From contig OY843751.1 in NCBI GenBank assembly GCA_963693055.1, positions 320,001 through 384,000 of the forward strand: a DNA stretch of 64,000 nt. The letters are read 5' to 3'. The DNA is from a bacterium (GTDB lineage: Bacteria; Zhuqueibacterota; Zhuqueibacteria; Residuimicrobiales; Krinioviventaceae). Of this stretch, positions 20,993-49,026 are shown one piece after another. A program made the position numbers and the translations under genes. Position 1 is the first letter of the stretch; the number at the start of each line of letters is the position of its first letter. The notes under the pieces are model-generated. The model did not search any database and was not told the origin of the DNA. It saw only the letters and a list, made by a program, of their open reading frames with translations.

Positions 20993-21031
20993 AACTCAAT
21001 ACCTCCAAGTTTAAAATTGACTGTGTACTTG

Positions 21032-22525: not shown

Positions 22526-22557
22526 TAAACGAGGAGCAATTTTTTGCTCCTCGTTTA
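22526..22557 (-). terminator. Intrinsic terminator at the end of the TBDR operon
   Basis: taaacgaggagcaa..ttgctcctcgttta. Confidence 0.7.
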
Positions 22558-22583: not shown

Positions 22584-25469
22584 TTATTTAATCAAAGTAA
22601 CCTTTTGTACTGAATTAAAATGGCTTGCTTGCATTTTGACAAAATAAATTCCGGAGGAAATGTTGTTACCAGCATCGTTAAGACCATCCCATACCATATC
22701 ATAGGTACCGGCTGTTTTATATTCATTAACCAGCGTACGGATTTTTTGACCCATAACATTATAAATATCAACAGATACCATGTTAGATACCGGGATTGTG
22801 TAGCGAATTGTGGTGCTGGGATTAAATGGATTTGGATATGCATTATAAAGCGTATAAGAAGCAGGAATTCTTTCTTTATCCAAATCTTCAATACCGGTTG
22901 TAAAGCCTTCACGTGGTTTGAAACCGGATGTGAAATATACTGCATCAATTTCCCATGTAGCCCGTTCAGGATTGATCCCATAAGGACCCCACAGGTTGTC
23001 AGCAGATTCCCAATATTGATCTTTGAGGGATTCACTTGCAGGTTTGGTGAACCATTTAAGGGTACGAACCTCAGAAGTTCTGAAAGCCACATCTTCACGA
23101 CTATCAGCAGATGAGCCTTCCCATGCTAAACTCCATGGCAGGATTGCATCAACAGCAGCAGAGTCTGACATTGTCAGGAATTTCCATGGCAAACTAACAT
23201 ATTGCCATTCGCCGGTAAAGTGTCTGTCTCTTACGACTGCCAATTCACCTAATTCATTAATATCAATTACGGTTTCACCATCGATAAACGCATTAACAGT
23301 TTCCTGTTTGTCGCCAGAGTAGGTGGTACCATCATAATCTGGTTGAAAACCCTGTACCAGGAACCACAGTGGAGCTGTACCTGGTTCAGCTTTGATCCAG
23401 AAACTTACCCGATCAGTTTCACTGGCGTCAAAAGGAACGTTGTAACCCGCTACAGGAGCATCTTCGCGGCGTAAATCCAACCAGCAATTGTCAGACGGAA
23501 TGCGTTCTCCACCAATACTAATGGTCATGGAATAAGGACCACTTGCAGGATTGTCAGAGTTGATTAACATCCAGTCTTCTGCATTTTGAACACACCAGCG
23601 AACAATCGTTTCACAGCCGGGTTCAGTTTTGGTTCCGTAACGAACCGGATTACCATTGTTGGTATTGAGTTTTTCCGGATCAGGATCCATCATTGCGTTG
23701 TCCCATACCGCAATTTCTGCAGGATATGATTCACAAGAATTAGATTTTTGGAATTTAATTTCATCAAGTTCCCATGTAGCCCGTTCAGGATTGATCCCAT
23801 AAGGACCCCACAGGTTGTCAGCAGATTCCCAATATTGATCTTTGAGGGATTCACTTGCAGGTTTGGTGAACCATTTAACGGTACGTACCTGATCAACTCT
23901 AAAAGCAACATCATCGCGAGAATCTGCAGATGAGCCTTCCCATGCCAAACTCCAGGGCAGCAATTCAGCAACAGCAGCCGAATCGCTCATGGTTAAGAAT
24001 TCCCATGGCAAACTAACAAATTGCCATTCACCGTTAAAATGATTGTCACGCAATACTTTTAAACCACCATTACCATCTTTAACGATTATGGTTTCACCAT
24101 CGATAAACGCATTAACAGTTTCCTGTTTGTCGCCAGAGTAGGTGGTGCCATCATAATCTGGTTGAAAACCCTGTATCAGGAACCACAGTGGAGCTGTGCC
24201 GGGTTCAGCTTTGATCCAAAAAGTAACCCGGTCAGTATTACTGGCATCAAACGGTACATTATATCCCGCAACAGGAGCATCTTCGCGGCGTAAATCAAGC
24301 CAGCAATTGTCAGACGGAATGCGTTCTCCACCAATACTAATGGTCATGGAATAAGGACCACTTGCAGGATCGTCAGAGTTGATCAACATCCAGTCTTCTG
24401 CATTTTGAACGCACCAGCGAACAATATTTTCAGAACCGGGTTCAGTTTTGGTTCCGTAACGAACCGGATTGCCATTGTTGGTATTGAGCTTTTCCGGATC
24501 AGGATCCATCATTTCATTTGCCCATACATCAACTTCAGGTGTCAAGCAGTCATCAATTTCATCAGTATTAAAAGTGTCAAACATAATTTCATCAATTTCC
24601 CATGTAGCCCGTTCAGGATTGATCCCATAAGGGCCCCACAGGTTGTCAGCAGATTCCCAATATTGATCTTTGAGGAATTCACTTGCAGGTTTGGTGAACC
24701 ATTTAACGGTACGTACTTGATCAACTCTAAAAGCAACATCATCGCGAGAATCTGCAGATGAGCCTTCCCATGCCAAACTCCAGGGCAGCAATTCAGCAAC
24801 AGCAGCCGAATCGCTCATGGTTAAGAATTCCCATGGCAAACTAACAAATTGCCATTCACCGTTAAAATGATTGTCACGCAATACTTTTAAACCACCATTA
24901 CCATCTTTAACGATTATGGTTTCACCATCGATAAACGCATTAACAGTTTCCTGTTTGTCGCCAGAGTAGGTGGTACCATCATAATCTGGTTGAAAACCCT
25001 GTATCAGGAACCACAGTGGAGCTGTGCCGGGTTCAGCTTTGATCCAAAAAGTAACCCGGTCTGTACCACTGGCATCAAACGGTACATTATATCCCGCAAC
25101 AGGAGCATCTTCGCGGCGTAAATCAAGCCAGCAATTGTCAGACGGAATGCGTTCTCCACCAATACTAATGGTCATGGAATAAGGACCACTTGCAGGATCG
25201 TCAGAGTTGATCAACATCCAGTCTTCTGCATTTTGAACGCACCAGCGAACAATATTTTCAGAACCGGGTTCAGTTTTGGTTCCGTAACGAACCGGATTAC
25301 CATTATTGGTATTGAGCTTTTCCGGATCAGGATCCATCATTTCATTTGCCCATACTTTGACAGCATCGACAGTGTTTGTGGTAGTTTTTGATTCTTTGGC
25401 GGACAATGATCCAAACATAAAGAATGTAAAGACGAGTCCACAAAGTACTAGTAGTTTTGTTTTAAACAT
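22584..25469 (-). CDS. Secreted protein with three tandem CBM11/CIA30-like domains and T9SS/FlgD-type CTD
   Basis: Signal peptide; three ~255-aa repeats (FDAS.TDRV.FWIKA, EWQ.VSLPW); NAYPNPFNPST...KVTLIK. Confidence 0.8.
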   Translation of the reverse strand: MFKTKLLVLCGLVFTFFMFGSLSAKESKTTTNTVDAVKVWANEMMDPDPEKLNTNNGNPVRYGTKTEPGSENIVRWCVQNAEDWMLINSDDPASGPYSMTISIGGERIPSDNCWLDLRREDAPVAGYNVPFDASGTDRVTFWIKAEPGTAPLWFLIQGFQPDYDGTTYSGDKQETVNAFIDGETIIVKDGNGGLKVLRDNHFNGEWQFVSLPWEFLTMSDSAAVAELLPWSLAWEGSSADSRDDVAFRVDQVRTVKWFTKPASEFLKDQYWESADNLWGPYGINPERATWEIDEIMFDTFNTDEIDDCLTPEVDVWANEMMDPDPEKLNTNNGNPVRYGTKTEPGSENIVRWCVQNAEDWMLINSDDPASGPYSMTISIGGERIPSDNCWLDLRREDAPVAGYNVPFDASNTDRVTFWIKAEPGTAPLWFLIQGFQPDYDGTTYSGDKQETVNAFIDGETIIVKDGNGGLKVLRDNHFNGEWQFVSLPWEFLTMSDSAAVAELLPWSLAWEGSSADSRDDVAFRVDQVRTVKWFTKPASESLKDQYWESADNLWGPYGINPERATWELDEIKFQKSNSCESYPAEIAVWDNAMMDPDPEKLNTNNGNPVRYGTKTEPGCETIVRWCVQNAEDWMLINSDNPASGPYSMTISIGGERIPSDNCWLDLRREDAPVAGYNVPFDASETDRVSFWIKAEPGTAPLWFLVQGFQPDYDGTTYSGDKQETVNAFIDGETVIDINELGELAVVRDRHFTGEWQYVSLPWKFLTMSDSAAVDAILPWSLAWEGSSADSREDVAFRTSEVRTLKWFTKPASESLKDQYWESADNLWGPYGINPERATWEIDAVYFTSGFKPREGFTTGIEDLDKERIPASYTLYNAYPNPFNPSTTIRYTIPVSNMVSVDIYNVMGQKIRTLVNEYKTAGTYDMVWDGLNDAGNNISSGIYFVKMQASHFNSVQKVTLIK
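22943..25354 (-). repeat. Three intragenic tandem repeats of ~765 bp (periods 828 and 819 bp)
   Basis: Units at ~24590-25354, ~23762-24526 and ~22943-23707; catgtagccc marker at 24601, 23773 and 22954. Confidence 0.95.
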
Positions 25470-25624
25470 GTTTTCATTTCTCCTAACGTAGCAAATGAGT
25501 AGTAATTATGAATTGATCTGCGTTTCTTTCGAATTATTCGATTTTATCACATTTCAAAACAAAAGATACTTTTTCTTGATCTATATCCGGTTTTGAATTT
25601 TCCGAATTGATCAATCGCTTTTCT

Positions 25625-25683
25625 TATCACCTCCTTTTAATATTATTATGTAAAGATGAGTGGTCTCTTGTATCACCTCCTTT
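25625..25683 (-). promoter_or_regulatory. Two perfect start-less Shine-Dalgarno elements AAAGGAGGTGATA
   Basis: tatcacctccttt at 25625-25637 and 25671-25683; no start codon at normal spacing. Confidence 0.6.
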
Positions 25684-25689
25684 GTATTT

Positions 25690-27183
25690 TTAATGAATTT
25701 TATCTATGTATTCTATCAAATGGTCGTTAGTGATTATTGGAAAAAATGGTACAACATATTTATAGGGTTGGTCTTGGTGCATTACCAATAAATCTATAGA
25801 AGAAAGAGAGATATCTTCAAATGTCTTGAAATCTAGTTTGACCTTTTGGTAATATTTTTCCTGTAGTTTGTTGATGTATGGATTCAAGGTTTCGTTCAAT
25901 ATTTCATGATAATTTTTTGCAAAATCTCTGTTCTCTTGAACAGAATCTAAAAATTGGTGTTTTTTATTTAATGCAAAAAAAGTATCCTTCCACATGTTGA
26001 CATTTCTCTCAACAATATTGACTTTGTCATAACCTGCTTTATAAGCTTGTTGGGTTATGAAATGATCTCGAACAAGATCTGCAATAGCGAGACGTAACTG
26101 TTTTGGGAATTCATTGGGATTTACTTTATTGGTTCGGAAAACAAGTGGGTGAAACATGAGTGCATTTCGAAAATCATCAACTGTCCACACGTTGCCATCA
26201 ATTGTGAAAAAGACCTCTTGTAAAAATGCCTCATTGGACATTTCTTGTAAAGATTTTGGATTCTGTTCATCTTCCTGTTGCCATAATTGATTTATGGCAA
26301 TGTCCTTTTTTTCTTCTGATGTTGGGAAATATGAAGCATATAATATATCTGCCATTCTATTGAAAACGTCTTTATTAAAATCCATACGTTTACCACGCAT
26401 AATTTCAGAAACACGATTTTCCCAAATGACACTTGCTTTAATCTCTGTTAGTTTTTCGGTTATCTGATCTAGTCTTTCTCTCTGCTGTTTTTCTGTAATG
26501 ACTTTGGTATCAGTCCAGCCAAGTATTTTGATAAAAAGATAACCGTTTTCATCAAATTTGATTGGAGACAGCACTTGATCTTTGGTAAGGTTTTGTGAAA
26601 ATAAAGTTTGATGCAGTTTTATGTGTTCATCACTGTTCCATTGAACTTTACGAGTTGGTGCATTTTTTTCGCCCGTCATTTGAAAATAAAATTCATCAAA
26701 TTTTTGAGGATTTTGTACCAATTCATCATGTGCTTTTTCTGCAACGGTACTGTCAGTAATTGTGAAATAAGCAACATCATATTCCCGACCTGCAAATTTA
26801 TATGCATTTGTTAGTTCAGTATTGTCTAAAACAACTTTATCTGTAGCTTCAACATGATGCATATACTGACGCATTGCCTGTTCTTTATGTCCTTTGATAT
26901 AGTTTTGAAACTCTATGTTTTCCAGCAAGGGGGAATCACTTTCAGCTTCAATTGCCAGTATTTTTTCCGCAATGAGTGAGTTTAATATGATTTTTTTGTG
27001 AATATATGTATTGGCTTTGCAATAGTCTGGTCTTGGTACATATTCGGCGCGCCGAATAAATTCGTTAACACTAATAGTTGCCTTGCCGTCAATGTCTACG
27101 AGGATTTTTTCCTGAGGCTCTTTTGGTGTTTTGGTGCTGCAAGAAAAAAGTAAAAATATCAATATTAAAATTTTATACTTCAT
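25690..27183 (-). CDS. SurA/PrsA-like chaperone (PPIase-like) lipoprotein
   Basis: Lipobox LFSC; ISVNEFIRRAE, ILNSLIAEKILAIEA; degenerate parvulin-like middle; duplicated helical module. Confidence 0.55.
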   Translation of the reverse strand: MKYKILILIFLLFSCSTKTPKEPQEKILVDIDGKATISVNEFIRRAEYVPRPDYCKANTYIHKKIILNSLIAEKILAIEAESDSPLLENIEFQNYIKGHKEQAMRQYMHHVEATDKVVLDNTELTNAYKFAGREYDVAYFTITDSTVAEKAHDELVQNPQKFDEFYFQMTGEKNAPTRKVQWNSDEHIKLHQTLFSQNLTKDQVLSPIKFDENGYLFIKILGWTDTKVITEKQQRERLDQITEKLTEIKASVIWENRVSEIMRGKRMDFNKDVFNRMADILYASYFPTSEEKKDIAINQLWQQEDEQNPKSLQEMSNEAFLQEVFFTIDGNVWTVDDFRNALMFHPLVFRTNKVNPNEFPKQLRLAIADLVRDHFITQQAYKAGYDKVNIVERNVNMWKDTFFALNKKHQFLDSVQENRDFAKNYHEILNETLNPYINKLQEKYYQKVKLDFKTFEDISLSSIDLLVMHQDQPYKYVVPFFPIITNDHLIEYIDKIH

Positions 27184-27222
27184 GGTAATTAACCAACATT
27201 TTAATAATTGTAATGATTGATT

Positions 27223-27255
27223 TAAATGTCCGATCTAAAAAAGATCGGACATTTA
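27223..27255 (-). terminator. Intra-operon hairpin (terminator or stability element)
   Basis: taaatgtccgatct..agatcggacattta. Confidence 0.65.
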
Positions 27256-27286
27256 TTTAGTTTAATTTATTTGAGTAGCGGTGCAT

Positions 27287-28102
27287 TTATTCAAGTTCCA
27301 AAAAGTAGTTATACCGGTCAGCAACCGCATAGTTGTTCCAAAGACCGCCTTCGGTTGTTAACATTGCGAAAAAGTATCTTGCATTAAAACCATCAACACC
27401 GTCTTTATTTTCAAAATATTCAAAGGTTAATCCATCTCCATTTATCCAGTTAAGAAGAGTAAAACCTCCATCACCTGTAGGTTCATAACGGATACCGATC
27501 CATGTTTCACCCATATCCAGCTCCATCATTGCATTAAAGAGAAAAGAGTGCTCTTCCTGAGTAGCAATGCAAGGTAAATATCCGCCGGCAAGATCACAGT
27601 TGTAATTAGCCTCTGGCCAGGTAATTTTTGAACGAGAGATGTAGTAACAGTGACCGCCGAACCTTCCAAGTAATATGAATATATCGGGATCCGCCCAAAA
27701 TTTGGTTACTACAACCTGCATTTCTTTTTCTGCCTCATTAATGTTGTCTTTTAATGTAAAGCTTGTTGTTGTTCCGCTGTCAGATTTGGCAACAGCATAA
27801 AACGAGTTTGGATCATCAGCAATGGGGAGTATCTCGAAAACACTATTATCTTCAATTGTCCACTGATATTCAGGGTCTTCCAATAGTCGGGTAGTAAGTT
27901 TAAGCAACAATGTATCGCCTTCATTAATATACAGAGAGTCAACTCCATGAGGCTTATCATCCGATTGGTTGATATATATTTCATCTCCTAAAATTTTTGC
28001 CTTGTTGTAATTCAATTCTGGCTCAGTATGGCTATTAAAATCACACGCAACGATTCCAAAGCTAACTATCGCCACAAACAGAATTAAAAACCTATATTTC
28101 AT
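27287..28102 (-). CDS. C-type lectin domain lipoprotein
   Basis: Lipobox IVAC; GHCYY..TWPEA...C...GGYL..I..EE..FL, WIGI. Confidence 0.8.
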   Translation of the reverse strand: MKYRFLILFVAIVSFGIVACDFNSHTEPELNYNKAKILGDEIYINQSDDKPHGVDSLYINEGDTLLLKLTTRLLEDPEYQWTIEDNSVFEILPIADDPNSFYAVAKSDSGTTTSFTLKDNINEAEKEMQVVVTKFWADPDIFILLGRFGGHCYYISRSKITWPEANYNCDLAGGYLPCIATQEEHSFLFNAMMELDMGETWIGIRYEPTGDGGFTLLNWINGDGLTFEYFENKDGVDGFNARYFFAMLTTEGGLWNNYAVADRYNYFLELE

Positions 28103-28162
28103 TGTGCCTCCTATATCTATTATTAACTCTTGTTACAAGAGTAATCAATTATTGGATGGTTA

Positions 28163-29224
28163 TTAAAATTGCACACCAAAACTGCTGCAATGAATGTTGC
28201 CCAAAACTCCAAGCGTACGATAGGCATAATCAATATTGATTGACAGATTTGGAGAAAGATGATAATTTAAACCAGCTCCAAAAGTGGGCCCATAGTTAGA
28301 TTTTTCTAAAAACAGGGCTTTGTAGCCTGCCCGTAGAGAGAAATCTCCATATCCCGGGGCAAAAAATTTGTATTCTGCACCAGCATTAATGGATTCACCC
28401 ATGTTGTTTGGATGCAGGGCGTCAGCCTCCAGGACTAATTTTTGGTTTCCCAAAGAGATAGGAGTAACGGCAATACCAACCCGGAAAATGAGTGGTAATT
28501 CCCATTCAGACATTTTATATTTTCCCTGAAGATTTTGATAATTACCGTTAGCATCTACGTCAATGTCTACCGGAATCAGCAAATCATCACCATCGTATTC
28601 CATCTTTGAGCCATAATTTGATATGCTCATACCAATACGAAGACCATCTTTATTCTTGCTGTTAGGTGAAAAGAACGGGGTTTGCACAAGAACGCCCAAA
28701 TCAGCAGCAATAGCGTGACTGTTTGTATGCCAAATTTTTGAGTTGATGTATTTAAACGTAGCACCAAAGGAAAACCATTGAGCAATACTTTGGGCATATG
28801 ATAAACTAAAGTTGTAATCTAGTGCTGTATATTTTTCACCAGTACCATTCTGGTATTCAAGCGTTGTCACATCGATATCACCATAATTAAGGCTAAATAC
28901 TCCTACTGCTATAGTGCCGAGTCCCTGCAATGGCATAGCGAATCCTGAAAACATTGAATTTATATCAACCACCCATGGTTGATACATAAACAGCGCTTCG
29001 TTAGATTTCAAAAAGGCTAGACCAGCAGGGTTCCAATAAATGGATGACATGTCTCCGGTAGATGCAACATATGCATCTCCCATGGCATTGCCAGCAGCGC
29101 CAATCCCTATTTCCAAAAAACTAGCGGATGTTGTACCAACCCTATAGGGTTGCTGGGCTAGTCCCTGAATGCTTATCAGTAAAAAAAATGTCAAAATTGA
29201 AACTCTAAGGTGTCCTCTTAACAT
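28163..29224 (-). CDS. PorV/PorQ family outer-membrane beta-barrel
   Basis: FLEIGIGA...AMGDAYVA, IYWNPAGLA, LPLIFRVGIA, DYAY, terminal F. Confidence 0.9.
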   Translation of the reverse strand: MLRGHLRVSILTFFLLISIQGLAQQPYRVGTTSASFLEIGIGAAGNAMGDAYVASTGDMSSIYWNPAGLAFLKSNEALFMYQPWVVDINSMFSGFAMPLQGLGTIAVGVFSLNYGDIDVTTLEYQNGTGEKYTALDYNFSLSYAQSIAQWFSFGATFKYINSKIWHTNSHAIAADLGVLVQTPFFSPNSKNKDGLRIGMSISNYGSKMEYDGDDLLIPVDIDVDANGNYQNLQGKYKMSEWELPLIFRVGIAVTPISLGNQKLVLEADALHPNNMGESINAGAEYKFFAPGYGDFSLRAGYKALFLEKSNYGPTFGAGLNYHLSPNLSINIDYAYRTLGVLGNIHCSSFGVQF

Positions 29225-29260
29225 TACTTTATCCTTTCAATCTTAAAAAAATTTGTGAAC

Positions 29261-32200
29261 TTATTTAATGACACCAAATTTGCCGACTTTTTCTTCACCG
29301 GTCTCATCATCTTTAACATGATATAAATACATACCGGCAGCTATTTCCAATCCTTCCCAGGAAAGCATATCCCAGTGTAGAGTACCGGTATTATTGTCGC
29401 CAAAGCCTGAAAAGGTTGTCAAGCAGTCTCCCGGGCTATTTAATTCCCGTACAAGCATACCACTCACTGTAAAGATTTTGATAGTACATTTGGCAGGTAG
29501 ATTTGTAAATAACAATCTTCTACGCTGGTTCAGATATTTATTGACCACAGAGGGTTCCATCATATTTGTAGCAACATAAGGATTGGGAACTACACGTATG
29601 GAATCCATTAATGATTTCGCATTATTCGTATTGATCAATTTTTCGGCAGAAACTGTGAATGTCAATGAATCGGTTTTATACCAGGGTTTTAGGTGGCGAA
29701 TGGCATAAACATCGTTTGCTTTGGGTAAGTCACTTTCGTCATCGCAGCGTTGGAAATCAATGATGAATAAAACCCCATCCCATAATTTATTTGCATTATA
29801 TGGGCCAGCCAAAATACGATCTTCCAGAATATCAAACTGGCCGTTAGCATTCATGTCCTGAACCAGCATATCTAAAACACGAGGTGCTCCGGTAGAATCG
29901 GCAAAATCCAGACATTCAATTCTAAAGTTAAACTCTTCTTCAACCAGCAATTCATCTTTATTTAATCTGTTTCCATTTTCATCGTCAAGATAACCGGCAT
30001 ATCGCTGGGTAATCTGTGTTTTATGCAGGGGCTGATCGGAAAAGACAATGTTATAATCCCAGCTATAGCATTCCATGGCCAGGTTATCAATATAACGGAT
30101 GTTCATGGGAGATTCACCAGGCATCCATCCTGTGTTGGCCACATCGAGTTCTGCCAGGTCTGCATCCATTTGAACGCCCAGTTGTATTCCATCAAAAATA
30201 TCTGTCCACAAGAGTTCAGATGATGCCAGGTGGTAATGGTCGTCCTTTTCAATAATGGAAGTCATGTTAGCAGGGCCGCCACTTCCTAATACATCTGCAA
30301 GAACCAGTCTGTTATCTTCTGTTACATCATAGACCTTTAATCCATTAGCAGTGTATTTATATCCATAACCTGCATGGTATCTATAAGCAGAATCAATCTG
30401 ATCATAAGAGAATTTTATTTTATAGACGTGGTCATCTTTTAATGAATTGATATCAATAACTTGAGGAACAATTTTACCACCACCAATAGAACCATTATCA
30501 TCAACCTGAAAATCAACAGTCACTTCCTCTCCCGCAGCATCAGAACCGGGGGTAACAATTGCTACATTAGCACCAATGAATTCTATATTTTCAGAATCAT
30601 CTTTTCTGATAATGGCATTGTTTTCGGATGGAGAAATTCCGGCATTTTCATCCTGAGATATGAGGGAGGTTCCCTTGAGTCTGTCAGGTTCTATACCATA
30701 GTCGTAAGCTACCAGGGCATAATAATAGGTACGTCCATTTTGAACGGTTTCATCTTTGAATGAATACGCTACACCAGAGTTGTCACCCAGATAATAAGCC
30801 GTTCCATTCAAAAATCCCCAGGTGGCAAAACCTTCATACTCGTTTTTAAGGTCGCATTGAAAAATGGGTTTTGAAAAAGCTGCAGATCCATAACCATCTG
30901 TTATTACCATGGGATCAAGCATATCCGGATCTGTGGAACGATATACTTTATAGCCTTCAAAATCATTCTCTCCATTAAGAAATGATTCTTTTGTCAATCG
31001 GTCTGAACGATCGTCCCACATGAGTTGAACAAAACCGTCTCCGGCAACAGCCGTGAGCTTGGGCATTTCGGGTGGTTGAGCAAAACGATAGTCTTTTTCA
31101 TAAATAAGCTGAACTACATTTTTTAATGTAAAAAGGGCGGGAGCTGAATGATCAGCAGAAGTCAAACCTGCAAGGTCATCAAAAGTATGCAGCTCGGAAA
31201 TTGAGATAAATTCAGTTTGACCACGGTAAAGCGGAAAGATAGCCGTAGAAAATAGCTGAAACAGGTTGTCGATGTGTGTGGCACCGGCTTCCAGAATTCC
31301 ACTGGTCATATTTCTATATACGGACTCGTCATTTCTGAACCAGTTTACATAAGGCGCTGTATGTATAGGCGCTTCGTAAAATAACAATGTTGTTAAACCC
31401 AACATATCAGTTTCAGTTACATCAGTCCAGCCAAAATTTGGTTCAGCGTAACCTTCTCCAATGTCCGGTTTGTGATTACATTCAGTGCCGTCAGCATCGG
31501 GACCGGTATAATTTAATTCACTGGGAGAAACACCGTCGAGACCAATATCATCACCGGCATATTCGTCTGCCTGATAAATTCCGTCATTATTGGTGTCTTC
31601 ACCATCAGACCAATCCTGATCTTCGTCACCTGACCAATGCTCTACCAAATCTTCTTCAGTTTTGCCATAAAAGGATAGAAAATCATCTAAATTGGTTATA
31701 CCGTCATACTTGCCGACAAACATACCAGCGTCATTGTCACGCTCTTCATCGACCAAACCATCCTGATCATTATCTATAAAGTCATTAAAAATACCAGGAC
31801 TTTCAAGATAGGCATAACCCGCGGTTCCGGTTTTATATCCACCAGAACCAACTCCGTCAGTATCCCAGCAATATGACAAGTTCATAACTTTATTAAAATT
31901 GCCATCTTCACCCGTGTTTTCGCCACCAATATTATTGTCTAGCCAGTAACCAAATGCCATATTGGGTAGATCATAATCTGAAATATTTGCAACAGTATAT
32001 TCCCAAAAGATACAATCCTGTGCCATGGGATTGTTCCACTGAAAACCTCTCTGTTTGACTCTGATTCCCAGGCCACCCCAGGGTTCTCCTTTTTGTACAG
32101 TCACACTGCCATCAATATCACCAATTTTAACATCTTTGCGTGGATAATATTTTACCTTGTCGTCTTCTCCAAGGTATTCGAGGTCTTGGGCATCATTGGC

Positions 32201-32803
32201 AACAAAATAGGCTTCTAAATCTGCTTTAATTTGGCCACGACCAAAACGGCCATCCCATTCGCCCGCCCAATGCGTTTGGCGTCCTGTATAAAGCCAGCCG
32301 TGTGTTGGCCATGAATCCGGGTCATTGCTTAATGCCGGGGTTTCGCTGGCATTGTTCATATAGCCTGGAACCGGATGAAAGCCCCATTCCACCTGACCGG
32401 TAGGGTCTCGATCCATTTCTTCTCTATAATTGGTTTGGCAATAAAACAGAGTGTCAATCAGACCCTGAGCTTCCAGTGCTTTAATTTCATCAGGATCAGT
32501 GACTGGAATTGAATCTTGGGTAATGCAGACAGCCGAGCTTATTAACAGGCCCATATTGTCATGCATCTTGTTTCCACCAACACCTTTTGGCCACCAAGCA
32601 GTTGTAGCAACGGGATAACCACCCAATTCCGTATTGTTTTTAAAATTCAATTGAACACGGTTTCCTGACATTACACCTTCGCGCTCCAGATATGGATCGC
32701 CTGCGCTGTCTTGAGGACCGTCATAATTTTTCCCCTGAGCATAGAGGTCGGTTATGCTTAGAAATAGTAATCCAAAACAAAGAATAAAAAGTTTTATCCT
32801 CAT
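29261..32803 (-). CDS. Large secreted partner protein (Ca-binding DxDxDG motifs, FN3-like domain, T9SS-like CTD)
   Basis: ATG 32803 after GAAAGG; DNDQDGLVDE; PPEMPKLTAVAGDG..L.WD; IRVVPNPY...GMYLYHV...GKFGVIK. Confidence 0.8.
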   Translation of the reverse strand: MRIKLFILCFGLLFLSITDLYAQGKNYDGPQDSAGDPYLEREGVMSGNRVQLNFKNNTELGGYPVATTAWWPKGVGGNKMHDNMGLLISSAVCITQDSIPVTDPDEIKALEAQGLIDTLFYCQTNYREEMDRDPTGQVEWGFHPVPGYMNNASETPALSNDPDSWPTHGWLYTGRQTHWAGEWDGRFGRGQIKADLEAYFVANDAQDLEYLGEDDKVKYYPRKDVKIGDIDGSVTVQKGEPWGGLGIRVKQRGFQWNNPMAQDCIFWEYTVANISDYDLPNMAFGYWLDNNIGGENTGEDGNFNKVMNLSYCWDTDGVGSGGYKTGTAGYAYLESPGIFNDFIDNDQDGLVDEERDNDAGMFVGKYDGITNLDDFLSFYGKTEEDLVEHWSGDEDQDWSDGEDTNNDGIYQADEYAGDDIGLDGVSPSELNYTGPDADGTECNHKPDIGEGYAEPNFGWTDVTETDMLGLTTLLFYEAPIHTAPYVNWFRNDESVYRNMTSGILEAGATHIDNLFQLFSTAIFPLYRGQTEFISISELHTFDDLAGLTSADHSAPALFTLKNVVQLIYEKDYRFAQPPEMPKLTAVAGDGFVQLMWDDRSDRLTKESFLNGENDFEGYKVYRSTDPDMLDPMVITDGYGSAAFSKPIFQCDLKNEYEGFATWGFLNGTAYYLGDNSGVAYSFKDETVQNGRTYYYALVAYDYGIEPDRLKGTSLISQDENAGISPSENNAIIRKDDSENIEFIGANVAIVTPGSDAAGEEVTVDFQVDDNGSIGGGKIVPQVIDINSLKDDHVYKIKFSYDQIDSAYRYHAGYGYKYTANGLKVYDVTEDNRLVLADVLGSGGPANMTSIIEKDDHYHLASSELLWTDIFDGIQLGVQMDADLAELDVANTGWMPGESPMNIRYIDNLAMECYSWDYNIVFSDQPLHKTQITQRYAGYLDDENGNRLNKDELLVEEEFNFRIECLDFADSTGAPRVLDMLVQDMNANGQFDILEDRILAGPYNANKLWDGVLFIIDFQRCDDESDLPKANDVYAIRHLKPWYKTDSLTFTVSAEKLINTNNAKSLMDSIRVVPNPYVATNMMEPSVVNKYLNQRRRLLFTNLPAKCTIKIFTVSGMLVRELNSPGDCLTTFSGFGDNNTGTLHWDMLSWEGLEIAAGMYLYHVKDDETGEEKVGKFGVIK

Positions 32804-32864
32804 AGTTAAAAATCCTTTCGAAATTCTTCCTCTCATTAGATTCACACCTTTAATTCAAAAGTTG

Positions 32865-35570
32865 TTAAAACGATATACCAAGGCCCAATTTAACTAATCG
32901 TGGTGCAGACCAGTTTGCGGGGCTGTAAATACTTTCTTCATAAGTACTAAAGTCACTCCAAAAACCTAACAAGTCACTGGGTTTGATAATCGCCTGGTTG
33001 GTGCGTCCTGTATTCGAGTTTACATTATTTTCGTTCAAGTGATCAAAAAGATTATATACCCGTAAGGTTGCAATAAATTTGGCTCCCATAATGGTAGCAA
33101 TGTCATAATGTGCTTTTAAATCAAATTTATAGTGAGCCGGTTTGCTTGCTCCATTTGGATACAAGTTAATTCGGTTTAATGGATTTTCGCTGATTGGGCT
33201 CCATGTGTATGCAGAACCTGATCCAGCCCAACCCATTACTGTTACACCCCATTTGCTCAAGTTGTAACCTATAGACATGTTAAGAGTATGACGCTGGTCC
33301 CAACTCATTGGTATTAATGTGGGAACAGGATCCTGGCTGCTGCCAGCACGACTAAAGGTGAAAATTGGATTATCTGCATTACCCCGTGTGTATTGTAGGG
33401 TATAGTTAACTTCGGCAAAAAAGTTTGCAACATGTGCGTTGTATTTGAGTTCGAGTCCTCTTGCGTTTCCATAGTCTTTATTGCCATAGAGTCCATAACG
33501 AACAGAATTGTAGGTTGTAACAATATTAACTGTGGATAGGTTATAAATATCTCTGTACCAAAGGGCGACCTCAAGATCCATATATTCGTTAAGCGCCTGC
33601 CACAAGCCTATCTCATAGCTAACAGTCATTTCAGGATCAACATTGGGATTACCCAATGTGGTTTCGTAATCTGCTGGTGAGATTACATAAGAGCTGTTGA
33701 GATACATGGTGCTATGTGGGGGATATTGATAAAAGTGGCCATAGCTAAAACGCAGCAATGCTGTTTCACCCAGTTTATAAGATAAGCCTAAACGTGGGGC
33801 TATATTCATTTTAGCTTTTGCTTTTGGATATGTACTAACCCAATCTTCTGTACCTTCTTTTTGAAGCAAGTTACTGGGGTTTCTATAGTTGGAAGGGTAG
33901 GTTGTATTTGGATCAAAGTATTCACCTCTGACACCCAAATCAATAACCATGTTGTTATATTCCATTTTGTCTGAAATCCAACCAGCAAATTGATAGGGTT
34001 TCTTTTGGTAACTGTCGGTGTATACTGTTGAATCGGATGGTAACTCTGGTGCGTAAAGGAAATCTGACGCTGATGTGTTTCTATAATAATTTAATATGGA
34101 ACCGTTTAAATAATCATAATCAAATTGTTCACCCTGAAAACCCGCTTCAATATTATGATTATAGTTAGCCTGCCAGGTTATGTCAAAACGACCGAGCAAT
34201 TTTTTACTTGTTGTTTTGGAATAGCCTTTATCTTGACCACCTGTAACAAATCCAGTATATGATGAATTTGTTGAAAAAGAGTCATGAATGTAGCGACTAT
34301 CTTGTGGATCTTCATATAGATAACTGCCCCCCATATCTTTTGAATATGAAACTTTGATTTCATAAAACAATTCCGGGTTTAAAATATGGTTCAACTGGTA
34401 GGTCAGCATCTGACTTTTATTGTGGCTTCTACTACGACCATCGGGTTTATATTTTCTGGAATGGTTGTAAGATTGTCCTTCACTTTGGTTGCGTAAATAC
34501 ATTAATGACATTTTCAAGTTTTGCATCTTGTATGTCAGCTTGCCGTTGAAATTTATAGATTCGGACCAGCTCATGGGAACATATTCATTGTCACCGGTAT
34601 TTTCGTTATAAAGGTAAGCGCCGGTTTCAGGATCATATGAAGTACTGTCTTGATATAAGCTATAATCTGGTTGATCCGTTACGTTGAACCTTCTGACTCC
34701 ATTTAAATAACCATCATTATCCTGGACTCTGGCACTTGTAAAAAATGTCAGTTTGTCGCCAAATACAGGGCCGTGTAACATTACTTTATAATCTTCATTT
34801 CGGTCCATTTGAGAAGGTTTAAGGCCCATATAAACATCATCATGGGTGGTAAAATAGTTACCTAAATACCCTTCAATTTTACCATGAAAATCTTTACCGC
34901 CTTCTTTTGTAACTGCATTAACAATACCGCTCATCGCCTGTCCGTATTTGGCGCTGAACGTACCCGTAATGACTTCAACTTCCTGGACCGCATCCGGATC
35001 GATCTCTATCATTTGTCCTCTGTTGAGTCCATTATTGACAGACATACCATCGATCAAGTAGCTTGTCTCATTACTGCGACCACCGCGAAAGTGGCCCTGA
35101 ACAACACCTGGTTGCATAGCGACAACACTTCCAGTGCTTTCAACAGGAAGAACATTAATATCTTCTGATGATACATTTCGAATTGAACTCGTTTGGTCTT
35201 TTTTGATAGCAACGCGGTCTGCGGAAACGATAATTTCTTCACCAAGATCCAAAGCTTCCTGGCTCAGAGTCGTTGATAAAGTTAAGGTACGGTTAACAGA
35301 TACTTGCACATCTGTAATAAGTTTTGTTGCATACCCAATGCACATAAACTTGATTGTATACTTGCCCGGAGGAACATTCAAAATAAAGTAGTTTCCCTCG
35401 ATATTTGAAGCTCCACCTAAATAGGTGCCATCGACCATAACGTTAACACCTACAAGAGGCTCCCCTGTTTCAACATCTTTAATGGATCCGGCGATTTTAC
35501 CGGTTGTCTGTGAAAATATATTTCCAGACAAACATAAAAGAAGGAGAAAACCAATGGTGAATCTTTTCAT
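32865..35570 (-). CDS. TonB-dependent receptor (carbohydrate-locus type, not canonical SusC)
   Basis: TTGKIAG..D.ETGEPL.GVNV, HFRGGRSNE, ITGTFSAKYG.AMSG, PRLVKLGLGISF. Confidence 0.92.
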   Translation of the reverse strand: MKRFTIGFLLLLCLSGNIFSQTTGKIAGSIKDVETGEPLVGVNVMVDGTYLGGASNIEGNYFILNVPPGKYTIKFMCIGYATKLITDVQVSVNRTLTLSTTLSQEALDLGEEIIVSADRVAIKKDQTSSIRNVSSEDINVLPVESTGSVVAMQPGVVQGHFRGGRSNETSYLIDGMSVNNGLNRGQMIEIDPDAVQEVEVITGTFSAKYGQAMSGIVNAVTKEGGKDFHGKIEGYLGNYFTTHDDVYMGLKPSQMDRNEDYKVMLHGPVFGDKLTFFTSARVQDNDGYLNGVRRFNVTDQPDYSLYQDSTSYDPETGAYLYNENTGDNEYVPMSWSESINFNGKLTYKMQNLKMSLMYLRNQSEGQSYNHSRKYKPDGRSRSHNKSQMLTYQLNHILNPELFYEIKVSYSKDMGGSYLYEDPQDSRYIHDSFSTNSSYTGFVTGGQDKGYSKTTSKKLLGRFDITWQANYNHNIEAGFQGEQFDYDYLNGSILNYYRNTSASDFLYAPELPSDSTVYTDSYQKKPYQFAGWISDKMEYNNMVIDLGVRGEYFDPNTTYPSNYRNPSNLLQKEGTEDWVSTYPKAKAKMNIAPRLGLSYKLGETALLRFSYGHFYQYPPHSTMYLNSSYVISPADYETTLGNPNVDPEMTVSYEIGLWQALNEYMDLEVALWYRDIYNLSTVNIVTTYNSVRYGLYGNKDYGNARGLELKYNAHVANFFAEVNYTLQYTRGNADNPIFTFSRAGSSQDPVPTLIPMSWDQRHTLNMSIGYNLSKWGVTVMGWAGSGSAYTWSPISENPLNRINLYPNGASKPAHYKFDLKAHYDIATIMGAKFIATLRVYNLFDHLNENNVNSNTGRTNQAIIKPSDLLGFWSDFSTYEESIYSPANWSAPRLVKLGLGISF

Positions 35571-35707: not shown

Positions 35708-35723
35708 GCTAAAACGTTTTAGC
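35708..35723. promoter_or_regulatory. Candidate LacI-family operator
   Basis: Perfect 16-bp palindrome GCTAAAACGTTTTAGC with central CG, upstream of the TBDR. Confidence 0.75.
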
Positions 35724-36156: not shown

Positions 36157-38973
36157 TTAATTGTTGAAATTTTTTTGATAATCTGAAGGTTTTACTTTAA
36201 ATGCATTTTTAAAACACTTTGTAAAATAAGAAGGGGTTTCAAAACCGACTTTGAAGGCGATTTCAGAAATGGTCAAGTCTGAATTTTTCAAGAGGTCTGA
36301 TGCTTTGTGCAATTGTATGGTTTTTATAAATTCACTTGGAGCAAGACCGGTAATTGTTTTGATTTTCCGATAAAAAGTTAGCCGGTTCATACCAAATGTT
36401 TTACCTAAATTTTCAACAGATAAATTTGAATCCAAAATATGAATTTCCGCCTGTGCAATAACTTTTTGAAGAAATTCTTTGTCAAGATCTTTGATGCGGG
36501 GTTCATTTTTAAAGAACAAAATATCTTTGGAAAAATGTTCTTTAATCTTCTCTCTGTTTTTTATAATATTTTTTAATTTTAATTCAAGGATTTTGAAATT
36601 GAAAGGCTTTGTAATATAATAATCAGCACCGCATTCAAGACCTTCTATTTTATTTTCTTCAGTTGTTCTGGCAGAGAGTAAAATTATAGGAATGTGACTT
36701 GTATCTATGTCTGATTTTAATAATCTTGTCATCTCATTGCCATCCATTATGGGCATCATTATATCGCTAATAATAATATTGGGTTTATATTTTTTTGCTA
36801 ATGCGAGACCCTCTTTACCATTGTATGCTGCAATGATCACAAAATCTTTGACAAAATTATCTTTCAACATCTGGACAACATCTTTATTATCTTCGACAAC
36901 GAGTAATACTTCTGCATTATCATCAATAACATTTATTTGATTGACGGTTTGCTCCGGTAAATATTCAAATTCCTCAGAAACAAGGTGCTCAAAGGAATTT
37001 AAAGCTGTCAGGTCATTTCTAATTTCATTGTTTTTATATGCAGCAGCATTCGTAGGCAGTTGAATGGTAAATGTGCTGCCTTTATTGACCTCACTTTTTA
37101 CACTTATATTTCCATGATGCAGTGTCACAATTCTCTTGCTAAAGGCCAATCCTATACCTGTACTTGCTATTGAAGAATATCCATTTTGGTCAAAATTATG
37201 AAACTGCTCAAATACAAGTTCAAGTTCATTCTCAGGTATTCCAATGCCAGTATCTTTAACACTAATTTCGATGCATTTACTATTATCTTTAACGCAATCA
37301 CTATATATTACACTTAGAGTAATCTCTCCATTGTCTGGGGTAAATTTGAATGCGTTTGAAAGAAGATTGAAAACAACTTTTTCAAATTTTATAGCATCAA
37401 TAAAAACATTCATTTGCTCATGTTGAGCATAAAAGTTTAAATTAATATTTTTTATTTCTGCCGAGCTTTCAAAATAATTAAATATATCTTTTAAAAAACT
37501 TACAATATCATGTTCATCAATATTTAGAGAAACTTTCTGAGCTTCAATTTTTCGAAAATCCATTAATTCGTTAATGAGTTTTAATAATCTTTCAGCGTTT
37601 TTATTTAAAATGTTTAACTGTTTGGTAATATAATTGTCCTTGATATTTAAATTTTTTAATTGATCAAGGGTCCCTAAAATAAGAGTAAGAGGAGTACGGA
37701 ATTCATGAGAAATGTTTGTAAAAAATTGAATTTTAAATTCATTCGCTTTTTTTACAGTTTCTTGCATCTGATATAACTCGTCACGCTGCTTTTCAAGTTC
37801 AATTAAATGTTCTTCAATTGCCAGATTTTTTTCATTTAATTTACGATTCATCATTTTATTGATCTGTAAAGAACGGAACAGTAAAAAAAGAAAAGCAGCC
37901 AGCAAAAAAATGGCTGTAACAAGTGTAAAAATAAAATTTCGCTGCGAATTGTATTGAATGAATAAGCTGTTCAAGATTTGATTTTGAGTTTCAATTTTGG
38001 ATCGGATATTATGTATTTGATCTGATTTTATTTGCAACAATTTTGCATTTGTTGAATCAACAAGAATAGATTCCAGGCTAATATTTTTATCAACTGTATC
38101 TCCAATTAATATTTTAAATGCTGTTTGAATAGCTACATCACCACCTGTGGGATAAAGTATAGAGGCATCTAATTTGTTATCCATTACCATTTGAATGCCA
38201 CCACCATCACCAGGTAAAGCATCAATGCCGATAAATTTAATGTTTTGAGATAATTTCAATTCATTTAGAATGTTATATGCATGAATTGCAATTGCATCGT
38301 TGTGAGCAAATACCAGGTCAATGTCTGGGTGTTTTTTTATAGCATTTGAAATAAGTGTATTGAATTTTTCTTGATCAATAACAGCCCAATTATTATGTTT
38401 GCAGTTTATTAATTCTAAATTGTCACCTGTTCTTATGGCATCAGCAAACCCGGCTTTTCTTTCACGAGCCGGAGAAGATCCTGACAGTCCACAAATTTCA
38501 AGTATTTTTCCATTTGGCTTTATGAGATTTAATGCGTACGAACCTGCAAGATAACCAATTTTATAATTATCTGCACCAATATAGGTATTGTATGAATCGC
38601 TATTTATTTTCCGATCCAGCAAAATTACCGGAATTCCACTTTTGTAAGCTTTTTCCACAATAGGCGTTAGAGGCTCAGCTTCATTTGGTGAAACTATTAA
38701 CAAATCAACTTGCTGATCAATCAAATAAGATATGTCATTGATTTGTTTTTGATTGTTAGATTGTCCATCTAGTATTAAAAGTTTAATTTCGGGGTGTAAT
38801 GATGCTTCAAGCTTCATCTCATAATTCATTGACTGACGCCATAAATCATTGCTTACGCATTGTGAAAAACCCACAAAATATTTTTTGTTTTTTTCAGGAG
38901 AAAATTCTTTTGAACAGCCCCCCAAAAGAATTATTAAAACAAATAATAAACAATTTTTTTTCAATATTACCAT
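36157..38973 (-). CDS. Hybrid two-component system (periplasmic sugar-binding domain, His kinase, REC, AraC HTH)
   Basis: RbsB-like N-terminus (VGFSQC, DLLIVSPNEA), FFTNISHEFRTPL, NLLSNAFKFT, SDIMMP.MDG, EIAFKVGF..PSYF. Confidence 0.95.
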   Translation of the reverse strand: MVILKKNCLLFVLIILLGGCSKEFSPEKNKKYFVGFSQCVSNDLWRQSMNYEMKLEASLHPEIKLLILDGQSNNQKQINDISYLIDQQVDLLIVSPNEAEPLTPIVEKAYKSGIPVILLDRKINSDSYNTYIGADNYKIGYLAGSYALNLIKPNGKILEICGLSGSSPARERKAGFADAIRTGDNLELINCKHNNWAVIDQEKFNTLISNAIKKHPDIDLVFAHNDAIAIHAYNILNELKLSQNIKFIGIDALPGDGGGIQMVMDNKLDASILYPTGGDVAIQTAFKILIGDTVDKNISLESILVDSTNAKLLQIKSDQIHNIRSKIETQNQILNSLFIQYNSQRNFIFTLVTAIFLLAAFLFLLFRSLQINKMMNRKLNEKNLAIEEHLIELEKQRDELYQMQETVKKANEFKIQFFTNISHEFRTPLTLILGTLDQLKNLNIKDNYITKQLNILNKNAERLLKLINELMDFRKIEAQKVSLNIDEHDIVSFLKDIFNYFESSAEIKNINLNFYAQHEQMNVFIDAIKFEKVVFNLLSNAFKFTPDNGEITLSVIYSDCVKDNSKCIEISVKDTGIGIPENELELVFEQFHNFDQNGYSSIASTGIGLAFSKRIVTLHHGNISVKSEVNKGSTFTIQLPTNAAAYKNNEIRNDLTALNSFEHLVSEEFEYLPEQTVNQINVIDDNAEVLLVVEDNKDVVQMLKDNFVKDFVIIAAYNGKEGLALAKKYKPNIIISDIMMPIMDGNEMTRLLKSDIDTSHIPIILLSARTTEENKIEGLECGADYYITKPFNFKILELKLKNIIKNREKIKEHFSKDILFFKNEPRIKDLDKEFLQKVIAQAEIHILDSNLSVENLGKTFGMNRLTFYRKIKTITGLAPSEFIKTIQLHKASDLLKNSDLTISEIAFKVGFETPSYFTKCFKNAFKVKPSDYQKNFNN

Positions 38974-39236: not shown

Positions 39237-40253
39237 TTATTTACATGAAGCCCTGAAAATAAAATCTACTTCCAGTTCAATATTTTCTATTATATCTCCA
39301 TTGTACTTGTTTTCAATTGTATTCATTAATATTCGAACCGCATCTTTACTCATTTGCTCAATGGGCTGTACTATAGCGCTGATAGGTGTATACGATACCT
39401 TGAATGCAATTGGATCATCGTAACTGATAACTGACATTTTGTTGGAAATATCTACATTCAATTCTTTCAGACATTCAACACCCATTAGCCCCAGTTTATT
39501 GGTGGTAAATAGAATTGCATCGGCTTGTTTTTGAATAACGTCTTTGATTGCTTCCATTAAAACATCTTTTTGATGGCTGAAATCAAGATGTTTGATGATT
39601 GAGTGATTTACATTAATGCCATTGTCTTTTAAAGCATCAAGAAAACCTTCTTCTCTTTGCCTCATATGAATCAATTCAGGGATTATATTAATAAGCGCAA
39701 TATTTTTTCTGTTATTGGCTAAAAGTCGTTCTGTAGCTTTATAACTTGATTTATGATTATCGATCATTACCGAATGTGTATTGGGTATGTTAAAGATTCT
39801 GTCTACAATAACAAAAGGGATGTTTTGTTCTTGTAATTCAATTATTTCCTTTTCACTTCCATGAGGCGGTGTAATAATAAATCCATCGACCTGGCCATTT
39901 TTTAAAACTTTTAATTGGTTGGAAAATTTTGACAAGTTTTCATCCGAGTTTCCCAAAATGACATGATAGTTGTATTTAGAGGCTTCAATTTCGACATGTC
40001 GGGTCATGGTTGCAAAAAAAGGATTTGATATGTCAGCTACTATGAGTCCTAACGTTCTTGATTTGCCATGTCTTAAACTTTTTGCAAGATAATTTGGGGT
40101 GTAATTCATTTTTTTAGCAACTTTTAAGACTTTGGCTGTCATTTCATCGCTAATTCTTTTTTCTTTACTTTTACCATTGAGTACAAATGATACAAGTGAG
40201 GTTGAAACCCCAAGTTGTTTTGCAATATCTTTAATTGTGCTTTTGGTTTGCAT
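39237..40253 (-). CDS. LacI family transcriptional regulator
   Basis: TIKDIAKQLGVSTSLVSFVLNG, Y.PN.LAKSL, GLIVADISNPFF. Confidence 0.95.
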   Translation of the reverse strand: MQTKSTIKDIAKQLGVSTSLVSFVLNGKSKEKRISDEMTAKVLKVAKKMNYTPNYLAKSLRHGKSRTLGLIVADISNPFFATMTRHVEIEASKYNYHVILGNSDENLSKFSNQLKVLKNGQVDGFIITPPHGSEKEIIELQEQNIPFVIVDRIFNIPNTHSVMIDNHKSSYKATERLLANNRKNIALINIIPELIHMRQREEGFLDALKDNGINVNHSIIKHLDFSHQKDVLMEAIKDVIQKQADAILFTTNKLGLMGVECLKELNVDISNKMSVISYDDPIAFKVSYTPISAIVQPIEQMSKDAVRILMNTIENKYNGDIIENIELEVDFIFRASCK

Positions 40254-48988: not shown

Positions 48989-48992
48989 AAAT

Positions 48993-49023: not shown

Positions 49024-49026
49024 GTT

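What the first reader, a model, noticed from the sequence alone, without database searches (positions are those of the whole stretch)
22584..35570. SusD-less glycan-uptake machine: TBDR, giant secreted partner, dedicated PorV, lectin, chaperone and multivalent binder
Seen: six co-oriented genes next to HTCS and LacI regulators, with no SusD-like gene. The 1180-aa partner carries a CTD (VVPNPY...GKFGVIK) unlike the NYPNPFNP tails elsewhere in the window and is followed directly by a PorV-family barrel. Known: Bacteroidota PULs use SusC/SusD, and PorV binds CTDs as a T9SS shuttle. Inference: here a private PorV anchors its cognate CTD protein at the surface as the TBDR lid, an alternative PUL architecture. 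I recall similar gene orders in related phyla but know of no mechanistic description.
Basis: partly seen in the sequence, partly recalled or inferred. Interest (0 to 1): 0.8.

Follow-up and report, generated by a model that had tools for sequence, protein, structure and literature searches.

The report
SusD-free importer with barrel-tethered partner
An outer-membrane nutrient importer, a large unannotated secreted-type protein and that protein's own small anchoring barrel are encoded as a conserved trio, twelve times in this genome (which has no detectable SusD) and across several relatives of the Bacteroidota, and they likely do the job that the SusC/SusD pair does in Bacteroides, although no contact between them has been shown.

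Summary
Observation confirmed. The core is the trio TonB-dependent receptor (TBDR), 1180-aa partner and PorV/PorQ-family barrel.

It recurs 12 times in this complete genome, where three SusD models find nothing. In relatives the TBDR lies directly upstream in 67 of 69 loci and the barrel directly downstream in 59 of 61. The 12 trio barrels form one clade apart from the housekeeping PorV, and all 12 partners share an atypical PorZ-like tail. Two partners folded (1180 and 732 aa) share a GH94/GH15-type beta-supersandwich without a catalytic barrel.

Accessories vary: chaperone-like lipoprotein 36/72 loci, lectin 11/72, triple-repeat protein 1/72.

Against the reading: no interface was tested (complex tool unavailable). 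Tail and barrel show no co-divergence beyond linkage. Only 5 of 12 trios have clear sugar context. 28 of 81 phylum genomes carry both partner and SusD. GldM and GldK were not found, so secretion is non-canonical.

Eight literature searches found the gene order only in Rhodothermus gene lists, unexplained. This scan has reported the same trio on other genomes at least 15 times. Likely a barrel-tethered substrate-capture partner of the TBDR (0.6).

The parts
32865..35570 (-). TonB-dependent receptor, 901 aa: CarboxypepD-like N-terminal domain, plug, barrel. Not a SusC; member of a trio-specific TBDR group
   Evidence: (TIGR04056 60 bits vs cut-off 368)
29261..32803 (-). Partner, 1180 aa: predicted signal peptide without lipobox, beta-supersandwich (~40-575) with an acidic insertion (~335-470), FN3-like domain (~578-760), beta-rich insert (~760-1057, long type only), atypical PorZ-like C-terminal domain (~1066-1180)
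28163..29224 (-). PorV/PorQ-family barrel, 353 aa, in the trio-specific clade
27287..28102 (-). Predicted lipoprotein with a C-type lectin-like domain; no EPN/QPD sugar motif seen (motif recalled). Accessory, 11 of 72 related loci
27223..27255 (.). 14-bp hairpin between the lectin and chaperone-like genes; possible internal terminator or stabiliser (inferred)
25690..27183 (-). 497-aa predicted lipoprotein, degenerate PpiC/SurA-like by language-model features. Accessory, 36 of 72 loci; a paralogue follows the partner in a second long-type trio
22584..25469 (-). 961-aa type A CTD protein with three tandem ~275-aa Trp-rich repeats (97%, 85%, 85% identical); weak lead to carbohydrate-binding jelly rolls; rare accessory
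22527..22556 (-). 13-bp hairpin 27 nt after the last gene; likely end of the transcript (read by eye; not listed by the terminator scan)
35708..35723 (.). Perfect 16-bp palindrome GCTAAAACGTTTTAGC, 138 nt upstream of the TBDR start, unique in the genome at up to 1 mismatch; likely LacI-family operator (resemblance recalled)
36157..38973 (-). Hybrid two-component regulator with a periplasmic sugar-binding sensor; best PDB match 2x7x, E 6e-75
39237..40253 (-). LacI-family regulator

Best explanation
The TBDR, the 1180-aa partner and the PorV-family barrel are a conserved three-gene module that likely builds one outer-membrane import unit, in which the barrel would hold the partner's uncleaved tail and the partner would act as the substrate-capturing cap of its own TBDR, as SusD does for SusC. 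Shown: gene order and conservation; a barrel clade and a tail class specific to the trios; co-divergence of TBDR barrel and partner N-domain; SprA, PorU and a housekeeping PorV elsewhere in the genome. Predicted: partner fold (supersandwich, FN3-like domain, PorZ-like CTD). Inferred steps: (1) Sec export; (2) passage through SprA; (3) hand-off to the cognate barrel rather than to PorV/PorU, so the tail is kept, by analogy with PorZ-PorQ and type B CTD-PorP/SprF pairs; (4) the N-terminal supersandwich sits over the TBDR loops and presents oligosaccharide or another solute; (5) TonB-driven import. At this locus a sugar-sensing HTCS and a LacI with a likely operator would control the operon; the substrate is unidentified. 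The PpiC-like lipoprotein likely helps fold the long-type partner or TBDR. The lectin and repeat protein are likely optional binders.
For: Genome: 12 trios; 12 of the 13 closest TBDRs have the barrel at +1/+2, against none downstream among the other 44. The 12 trio barrels form one clade with no other member (SH-aLRT 96, quick tree of 25 rows), apart from the housekeeping PorV (242 bits on NF033710). All 12 partners share the same tail class, distinct from type A tails; it matches the PorZ tail (NF052228 E 3e-7; 5m11 Z 12.0, rmsd 2.8, 93 aligned, 27% id). Relatives: TBDR directly upstream in 67 of 69 loci with room; barrel directly downstream in 59 of 61, the other 2 within 2.6 kb. The short-type partner is present in 71 of 81 phylum genomes; 28 of 29 fetched loci have a TBDR hit and 28 of 29 a barrel hit within 1.5 kb. 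Long and short partners, whose bodies average 23% identity among the paralogues, share the supersandwich (Z 19.0 and 19.1). Across 43 complete trios, TBDR barrel and partner N-domain distances correlate at rho 0.88, partial 0.73, close to their split-half reliabilities of 0.87 and 0.89; this pair is also the best correlated among the 12 paralogues (0.77). Common neighbours of relatives are GH3, GH16, GH5, CBM9 proteins, SSF and ROK. No SusD in the genome. Precedents in print: cognate barrels handle linked CTD proteins (PMC10202324, PMC12618676); a FadL/PorV homologue, BamG, binds another barrel laterally and holds a surface protein (PMC12578637).
Against: Linked genes share history, so co-divergence does not prove contact. 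Tail-barrel correlation is weak (0.38; partial -0.03; 0.39 among paralogues), though both are noisy (split-half 0.44 and 0.54). Clear sugar context holds for only 5 of 12 trios, and the closest relatives of this locus have mixed neighbours. SusD and partner co-occur in 28 of 81 genomes, and R. marinus lists a SusC/SusD pair in the same xylan locus as a TBDR plus CTD hypothetical (PMC6987092, Table 1), so this is not a strict replacement. GldM and GldK were not found, with positive controls, so the export route is non-canonical and surface location is inferred. Two of 69 partners lack an upstream TBDR and one locus has three partners for one barrel. The supersandwich fold alone shows no function.
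Confidence: 0.6

Rival explanations
1. The barrel anchors the partner, but the partner works beside the TBDR as an independent surface binder or enzyme (for example mutarotase/epimerase-like), as SusE/F or SusG do, without forming a lid.
For: The N-domain fold also matches galactose mutarotases (Z about 13). Many invariant acidic residues lie in the long-type N-domain. Some partners lack a TBDR or are tandem. A piece of the N-domain profile also hits two ordinary type A CTD proteins.
Against: One partner per TBDR in 12 of 12 trios. N-domain residues are not conserved across paralogues, as catalytic residues would be. No catalytic helical barrel in either model. Tight TBDR-N-domain co-divergence.
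Confidence: 0.2
2. The partner and barrel are dedicated assembly or stabilising factors for this TBDR group (a BamG/BamH-like arrangement), helped by the SurA-like lipoprotein, and do not touch substrate.
For: A PorV/FadL homologue scaffolds surface proteins on BamA (PMC12578637 passages). A PpiC-like lipoprotein is co-encoded in 36 of 72 loci. Trios also occur in non-sugar contexts.
Against: An assembly factor need not be duplicated with every TBDR. Partner bodies diverge more than tails (23% vs 37% identity among paralogues), as expected of substrate-specific parts. The fold neighbours are carbohydrate-active proteins.
Confidence: 0.12
3. The TBDR-like barrel helps export or energise display of the partner in a lineage whose T9SS lacks the Gld motor; the module is a surface adhesin/display unit rather than an importer.
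For: GldM and GldK were not found in the genome. The partner has an acidic insertion with DxDxDG-like repeats and an FN3-like domain, as adhesins often do.
Against: About 220 ORFs hit by the type A-tailed protein have no private TBDR, so export does not need one. The TBDR keeps plug and barrel. Sugar transporters, kinases and glycosidases surround relatives.
Confidence: 0.06

Closest known systems
SusC/SusD (RagA/RagB) pairs of Bacteroidota polysaccharide utilisation loci
   Same: TBDR with a CarboxypepD-like N-terminal domain followed directly by a dedicated partner gene; many paralogous units per genome; neighbours are glycosidases, HTCS/LacI regulators and sugar transporters.
   Different: The TBDR is far below the SusC cut-off. 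The partner has no lipobox and no SusD hit, and is predicted to be beta-rich with a T9SS-type tail. A third gene, a PorV-family barrel, is obligatory.
Type B CTD substrates with cognate PorP/SprF shuttles (SprB-SprF, PG1035-PorP)
   Same: A CTD protein encoded next to a private barrel that likely handles and anchors it.
   Different: The barrel is PorV/PorQ family, not PorP. The tail is PorZ-like, not type B. The pair is tied to a TBDR; known type B cargo are described as adhesins.
PorZ-PorQ and PorU-PorV of the T9SS attachment complex
   Same: PorV/PorQ-family barrel and a PorZ-like tail; a retained tail is the proposed anchor.
   Different: The barrel is neither the PorV nor the PorQ orthologue by score; the partner is not PorU or PorZ; housekeeping PorV and PorU lie elsewhere in the genome.
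Bacteroidota BAM: BamA-BamG-BamH
   Same: A FadL/PorV homologue sits beside a larger barrel and holds a surface protein; a possible architectural model.
   Different: BamH is a lipoprotein and the large barrel is BamA; no contact is shown here.
N-terminal beta-supersandwich of GH94/GH15/GH65/GH116 and galactose mutarotases
   Same: Fold of the partner N-domain (Z up to 19, rmsd 3.2-3.3, about 250 residues aligned).
   Different: 5-12% identity, and no catalytic helical barrel follows.

Membership tests
SusC/SusD PUL core | TBDR of the SusC/RagA family | tested here: not met
   TIGR04056 60 bits vs cut-off 368, N-terminal part only
SusC/SusD PUL core | Adjacent SusD-family lipoprotein | tested here: not met
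   No Pfam hit for the partner; no Cys lipobox; PF07980, PF14322 and PF12771 absent genome-wide with ringing controls
SusC/SusD PUL core | Partner has the SusD helical fold | tested here: inconclusive
   Both models are beta-rich with few helices; absence from a fold list is not an exclusion
SusC/SusD PUL core | Co-located CAZymes and regulators | tested here: met
   Met for the family and 5 of 12 trios; at this locus regulators plus only weak glycosidase hits
SusC/SusD PUL core | Stable transporter-lid complex | not tested
Type B CTD / PorP-SprF pair | Type B CTD (PF13585) | tested here: not met
   No hit for the window partner; best paralogue 26.2 bits, under cut-off 27
Type B CTD / PorP-SprF pair | Barrel of the PorP family (TIGR03519) | tested here: not met
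   Best in genome 22 bits vs cut-off 90.6; control genome has 8 over cut-off
Type B CTD / PorP-SprF pair | Barrel gene next to its CTD gene | tested here: met
   59 of 61 loci; 11 of 12 trios adjacent, the twelfth four genes apart
PorQ-PorZ / PorV-PorU | Barrel in the PorV/PorQ family | tested here: met
   NF033709 207 bits vs cut-off 90
PorQ-PorZ / PorV-PorU | Orthologue of PorV or PorQ | tested here: not met
   NF033710 98 vs 250; NF033711 91 vs 220; housekeeping PorV elsewhere
PorQ-PorZ / PorV-PorU | Tail retained uncleaved and bound to the barrel | not testable with these tools
   Needs proteomics or a structure
Canonical T9SS in the host | SprA, PorU, PorV | tested here: met
   SprA 662 bits; two PorU over cut-off; PorV 242 bits, just under cut-off 250, full length
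Canonical T9SS in the host | GldM/PorM and GldK/PorK | tested here: not met
   GldM none, control genome 369 bits; GldK only partial matches up to 104 bits vs 350, control 577
Canonical T9SS in the host | GldN/PorN | tested here: inconclusive
   None found, but no positive control rang; GldL was not searched
GH94/GH15/GH65 glycosidases and phosphorylases | N-terminal supersandwich | tested here: met
   Z 19.0, rmsd 3.2, 259 aligned; Z 19.1, rmsd 3.3, 243 aligned
GH94/GH15/GH65 glycosidases and phosphorylases | Catalytic (alpha/alpha)6 barrel | tested here: not met
   DSSP of both confident models shows only scattered helices; no GH Pfam hit

The most novel reading that the evidence does not exclude
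KSB1, Calditrichota, Marinisomatota, Ignavibacteria and Rhodothermota use a second, independently built outer-membrane uptake machine: a 1:1:1 TBDR-barrel-lid complex. Its lid is exported by a T9SS without the Gld motor and clamped by a private PorV paralogue that reads a dedicated tail class. It is the main counterpart of SusCD in these phyla and serves glycans and other solutes.
Probability: 0.45. Interest if true: 0.85.

Novelty: new variant of a known kind. Interest (0 to 1): 0.7.

Why it matters
PUL prediction keys on SusC/SusD pairs (own knowledge), so glycan-uptake loci of SusD-poor phyla that are abundant in sediments and the ocean would be missed. In the sample of this phylum, partner matches outnumber SusD matches 324 to 62 over 81 genomes (matches are not copy numbers, and at most 14 candidates per genome were scored for the partner). 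The trio gives a marker for such loci. It would link T9SS tail-barrel recognition to nutrient import, and it is testable in cultured Rhodothermus or Caldithrix. It also raises how SprA works without GldM and GldK.

Tried and rejected
Complex prediction (TBDR barrel with the PorV-family barrel) was not available, so nothing was folded and binding is untested. The HMMER search of 50% representatives never ran.

A search for longer, fused forms of the barrel found none at E<=1e-20 among 6941 candidates; this is weak evidence. A profile search of the partner against PDB sequences gave 0 hits at E<=1. Foldseek on the whole partner gave only low-TM matches. No SusD structure appeared in the 50 rows listed by either fold search, which does not exclude it. 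hhalign of long against short partners aligned only the tail; N-domain homology rests on the two folds and a chain of phmmer hits. The insert at 760-1057 was not folded alone, so its fold is untested.

Specific tail-barrel co-evolution was not detected. Strict mutual exclusion with SusD is rejected. A six-gene conserved machine is rejected. The promoter scan was at chance level (75 found vs 75.9 expected). The operator palindrome is exact only in the near-identical locus L021; two other loci of 72 had 3-mismatch look-alikes. Fructose as inducer was considered from the 2x7x match (its identity as a fructose sensor is recalled) but not adopted, since no fructan enzyme was seen among the window genes scanned. 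The careful barrel tree did not finish, so the quick tree is quoted. Searches crashed after printing the values cited; the paralogue part was rerun.
Full report
Observation. The six ORFs, their orientation and the two upstream regulators are as described. Pfam and NCBIfam give a TBDR that is not SusC (TIGR04056 60 bits vs 368), an unannotated partner whose only hit is the PorZ tail (E 3e-7), a PorV/PorQ-family barrel (207 vs 90 bits) below the PorV and PorQ orthologue cut-offs, a C-type lectin domain, an unannotated lipoprotein and a type A CTD protein. A perfect 16-bp palindrome 138 nt before the TBDR is unique in the genome at up to one mismatch, and hairpins lie after the lectin gene and after the last gene. 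This fits one regulated transcript (inference).

The unit is a trio. In the complete 6.5-Mb genome I called 5133 ORFs with a simple script and found 57 TBDR-like ORFs. Twelve of the 13 closest to the window's TBDR have a PorV-family gene one or two genes downstream; of the other 44, one has a profile hit, upstream. Ten trios read TBDR-partner-barrel, one TBDR-barrel-partner, and in one the partner lies three genes before TBDR-barrel. The thirteenth TBDR has no barrel within three genes. All 12 partners (685-1280 aa) end in the same tail class, with a variable insertion after the PNP motif, distinct from the type A tails aligned beside them. The 12 trio barrels form one clade holding no other of the 25 rows (SH-aLRT 96, quick tree). 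The housekeeping PorV is a separate gene.

Distribution. The partner has 2570 homologues at E<=0.001 among 7996 scored candidates; the named ones among the 120 listed are mostly KSB1 and Calditrichota. The TBDR is directly upstream in 67 of the 69 loci with at least 500 bases of room. The barrel is directly downstream in 59 of the 61 loci with a complete partner and room; the other two have it within 2.6 kb. The chaperone-like gene occurs in 36 of 72, the lectin in 11 of 72, and the repeat domain only in the near-identical L021. The short-type partner is found in 71 of 81 phylum genomes. Of 29 fetched loci, 28 show a TBDR hit (one of these downstream, in a locus with tandem partners) and 28 a barrel hit. 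SusD is found in 32 of the same 81: both 28, partner only 43, SusD only 4, neither 6 (kin are not independent).

Partner structure. AlphaFold2 of the 1180-aa partner (88 sequences; pLDDT 84, pTM 0.77) is beta-rich. Residues ~40-575 match the N-terminal supersandwich of GH15/GH94/GH116-type enzymes (best Z 19.0, rmsd 3.2, 259 aligned, 10% id) and mutarotases (Z about 13). The tail matches PorZ (Z 12.0, rmsd 2.8, 93 aligned). A 732-aa paralogue (32 sequences; pLDDT 82) gives largely the same matches (Z 19.1). Neither model has a catalytic helical barrel. The tail loop 1077-1093 is conserved in the long family yet has low confidence in the monomer (likewise 619-636 in the paralogue), as a partner-binding loop might (inference). 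The FN3 label rests on source names and weak Foldseek rows.

Co-divergence. Over 43 complete trios, TBDR barrel vs partner N-domain gives rho 0.88 (partial 0.73; 0.76 when length-matched), while barrel vs tail gives 0.38 (partial -0.03). Split-half reliability is 0.87 and 0.89 for the first pair and 0.54 and 0.44 for the second, so the second test has little power. Among the 12 paralogues all pairs correlate: TBDR-body 0.77, TBDR-barrel 0.71, tail-barrel 0.39. This shows duplication as a unit, not contact.

Secretion. SprA, two PorU and PorV are present. GldM and GldK were not found although a control genome rang; GldN was inconclusive; no PorP family gene was found. The 961-aa protein hits 221 ORFs including itself, apparently through its tail, so CTD export is likely heavily used.

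Substrate. Neighbour clusters across the 72 loci include CBM9-bearing CTD proteins (40 loci), GH3 (17), GH16-malectin (17), GH16 (16), SSF (15), GH5-CBM6 (13) and ROK (11), each named from one representative. In this genome two trios sit among pectin enzymes, one among amylases and one beside GH2/GH5; with the window's sugar regulators that makes 5 of 12. Others neighbour sulfatases, phosphoesterases, an MFS/dehydrogenase cluster or nothing telling (63 neighbours scanned). The closest relatives of this locus have mixed surroundings. The HTCS sensor matches 2x7x (E 6e-75).

Accessories. The 497-aa lipoprotein resembles PpiC-domain clusters (Atlas 0.95-0.99) and has a paralogue behind another long partner (E 2e-12). 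The lectin is Lectin_C-like without the recalled EPN/QPD motif. The 961-aa protein has three repeats spaced 828 and 819 nt apart, each with 14 Trp, only 5 relatives besides itself, and leads at 0.92 to galactose-binding-like and SGBP-B domains with low shared-feature counts. 'Binder' is plausible but weak.

Literature. Eight full-text searches found no description of the trio as a system. The library lacks most subscription papers, and I opened no supplements. PMC9530828 (section 18 read whole) lists tonB, hypA (T9SS tail) and hypB (PorV/PorQ) in the R. marinus alginate locus, the last two as hypothetical genes. PMC6987092 (passages and Table 1) lists a TBDR followed by a CTD-bearing hypothetical beside a SusC/SusD pair; I did not test the third gene. 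PMC10202324 (passages) and PMC12618676 (abstract, passages) document cognate barrel-CTD pairs and retained tails. PMC12578637 (passages) describes BamG. PMC11285876 and PMC5317091 (passages) add nothing on the trio. PMC9143113 was seen as a listing only. Earlier notes of this scan report the same trio in at least 15 other genomes; these are unchecked and not independent support.

Verdict. This is a real, widespread and apparently unexplained module built from known parts. It likely works as a SusCD counterpart with a barrel-tethered partner (0.6), but it is not a member of the SusC/SusD family or of the type B/PorP pairs. Physical contact and the lid role remain untested.

Noticed in passing
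genome G000:C1 near 3067389, 3292239, 4294942, 5256418, 5656090, 5994833, 6146637, 6302735: Eight non-trio PorV-family genes also sit next to a large protein with an atypical tail (493-3157 aa, two of them PorU-like), suggesting a genome-wide rule of one barrel per atypical tail.
   Followed up: partly
whole genome G000: SprA, two PorU and PorV with about 220 tail-bearing ORFs, but no GldM, GldK or PorP by HMM; 3 other non-Bacteroidota genomes also lacked GldM.
   Followed up: partly
L016:12076-16721 (just left of the window): NifH and two nitrogenase component 1 genes beside a GAF-sigma54 activator; whether this is a true nitrogenase was not checked.
   Followed up: no
L027:282-12263: Three tandem long-type partners followed by a single barrel; the upstream region is cut by the contig end.
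   Followed up: no
L017:3344-5830: TBDR of the trio group without partner or barrel, followed by two lipoprotein-like genes and facing another trio cluster.
   Followed up: no
window 801-5956: Ordinary TBDR with a FecCD-type ABC transporter.
   Followed up: no
window 13612-22201: Downstream block: FG-GAP propeller protein, weak GH2-like TIM barrel, PD40/TPR protein and FkbO/Rid-like protein; link to the operon unknown.
   Followed up: partly
window 42758-44723: A short ORF with an RHS-core-like motif and a transposase-like ORF, both judged by eye; the first has no Pfam hit.
   Followed up: no
window 46772-52521: A type A CTD protein with a caspase-like domain, and a GH92 mannosidase.
   Followed up: no
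L017:11652-19794: Two large type A CTD proteins weakly match part of the partner's supersandwich profile, so the domain may also occur outside trios.
   Followed up: no
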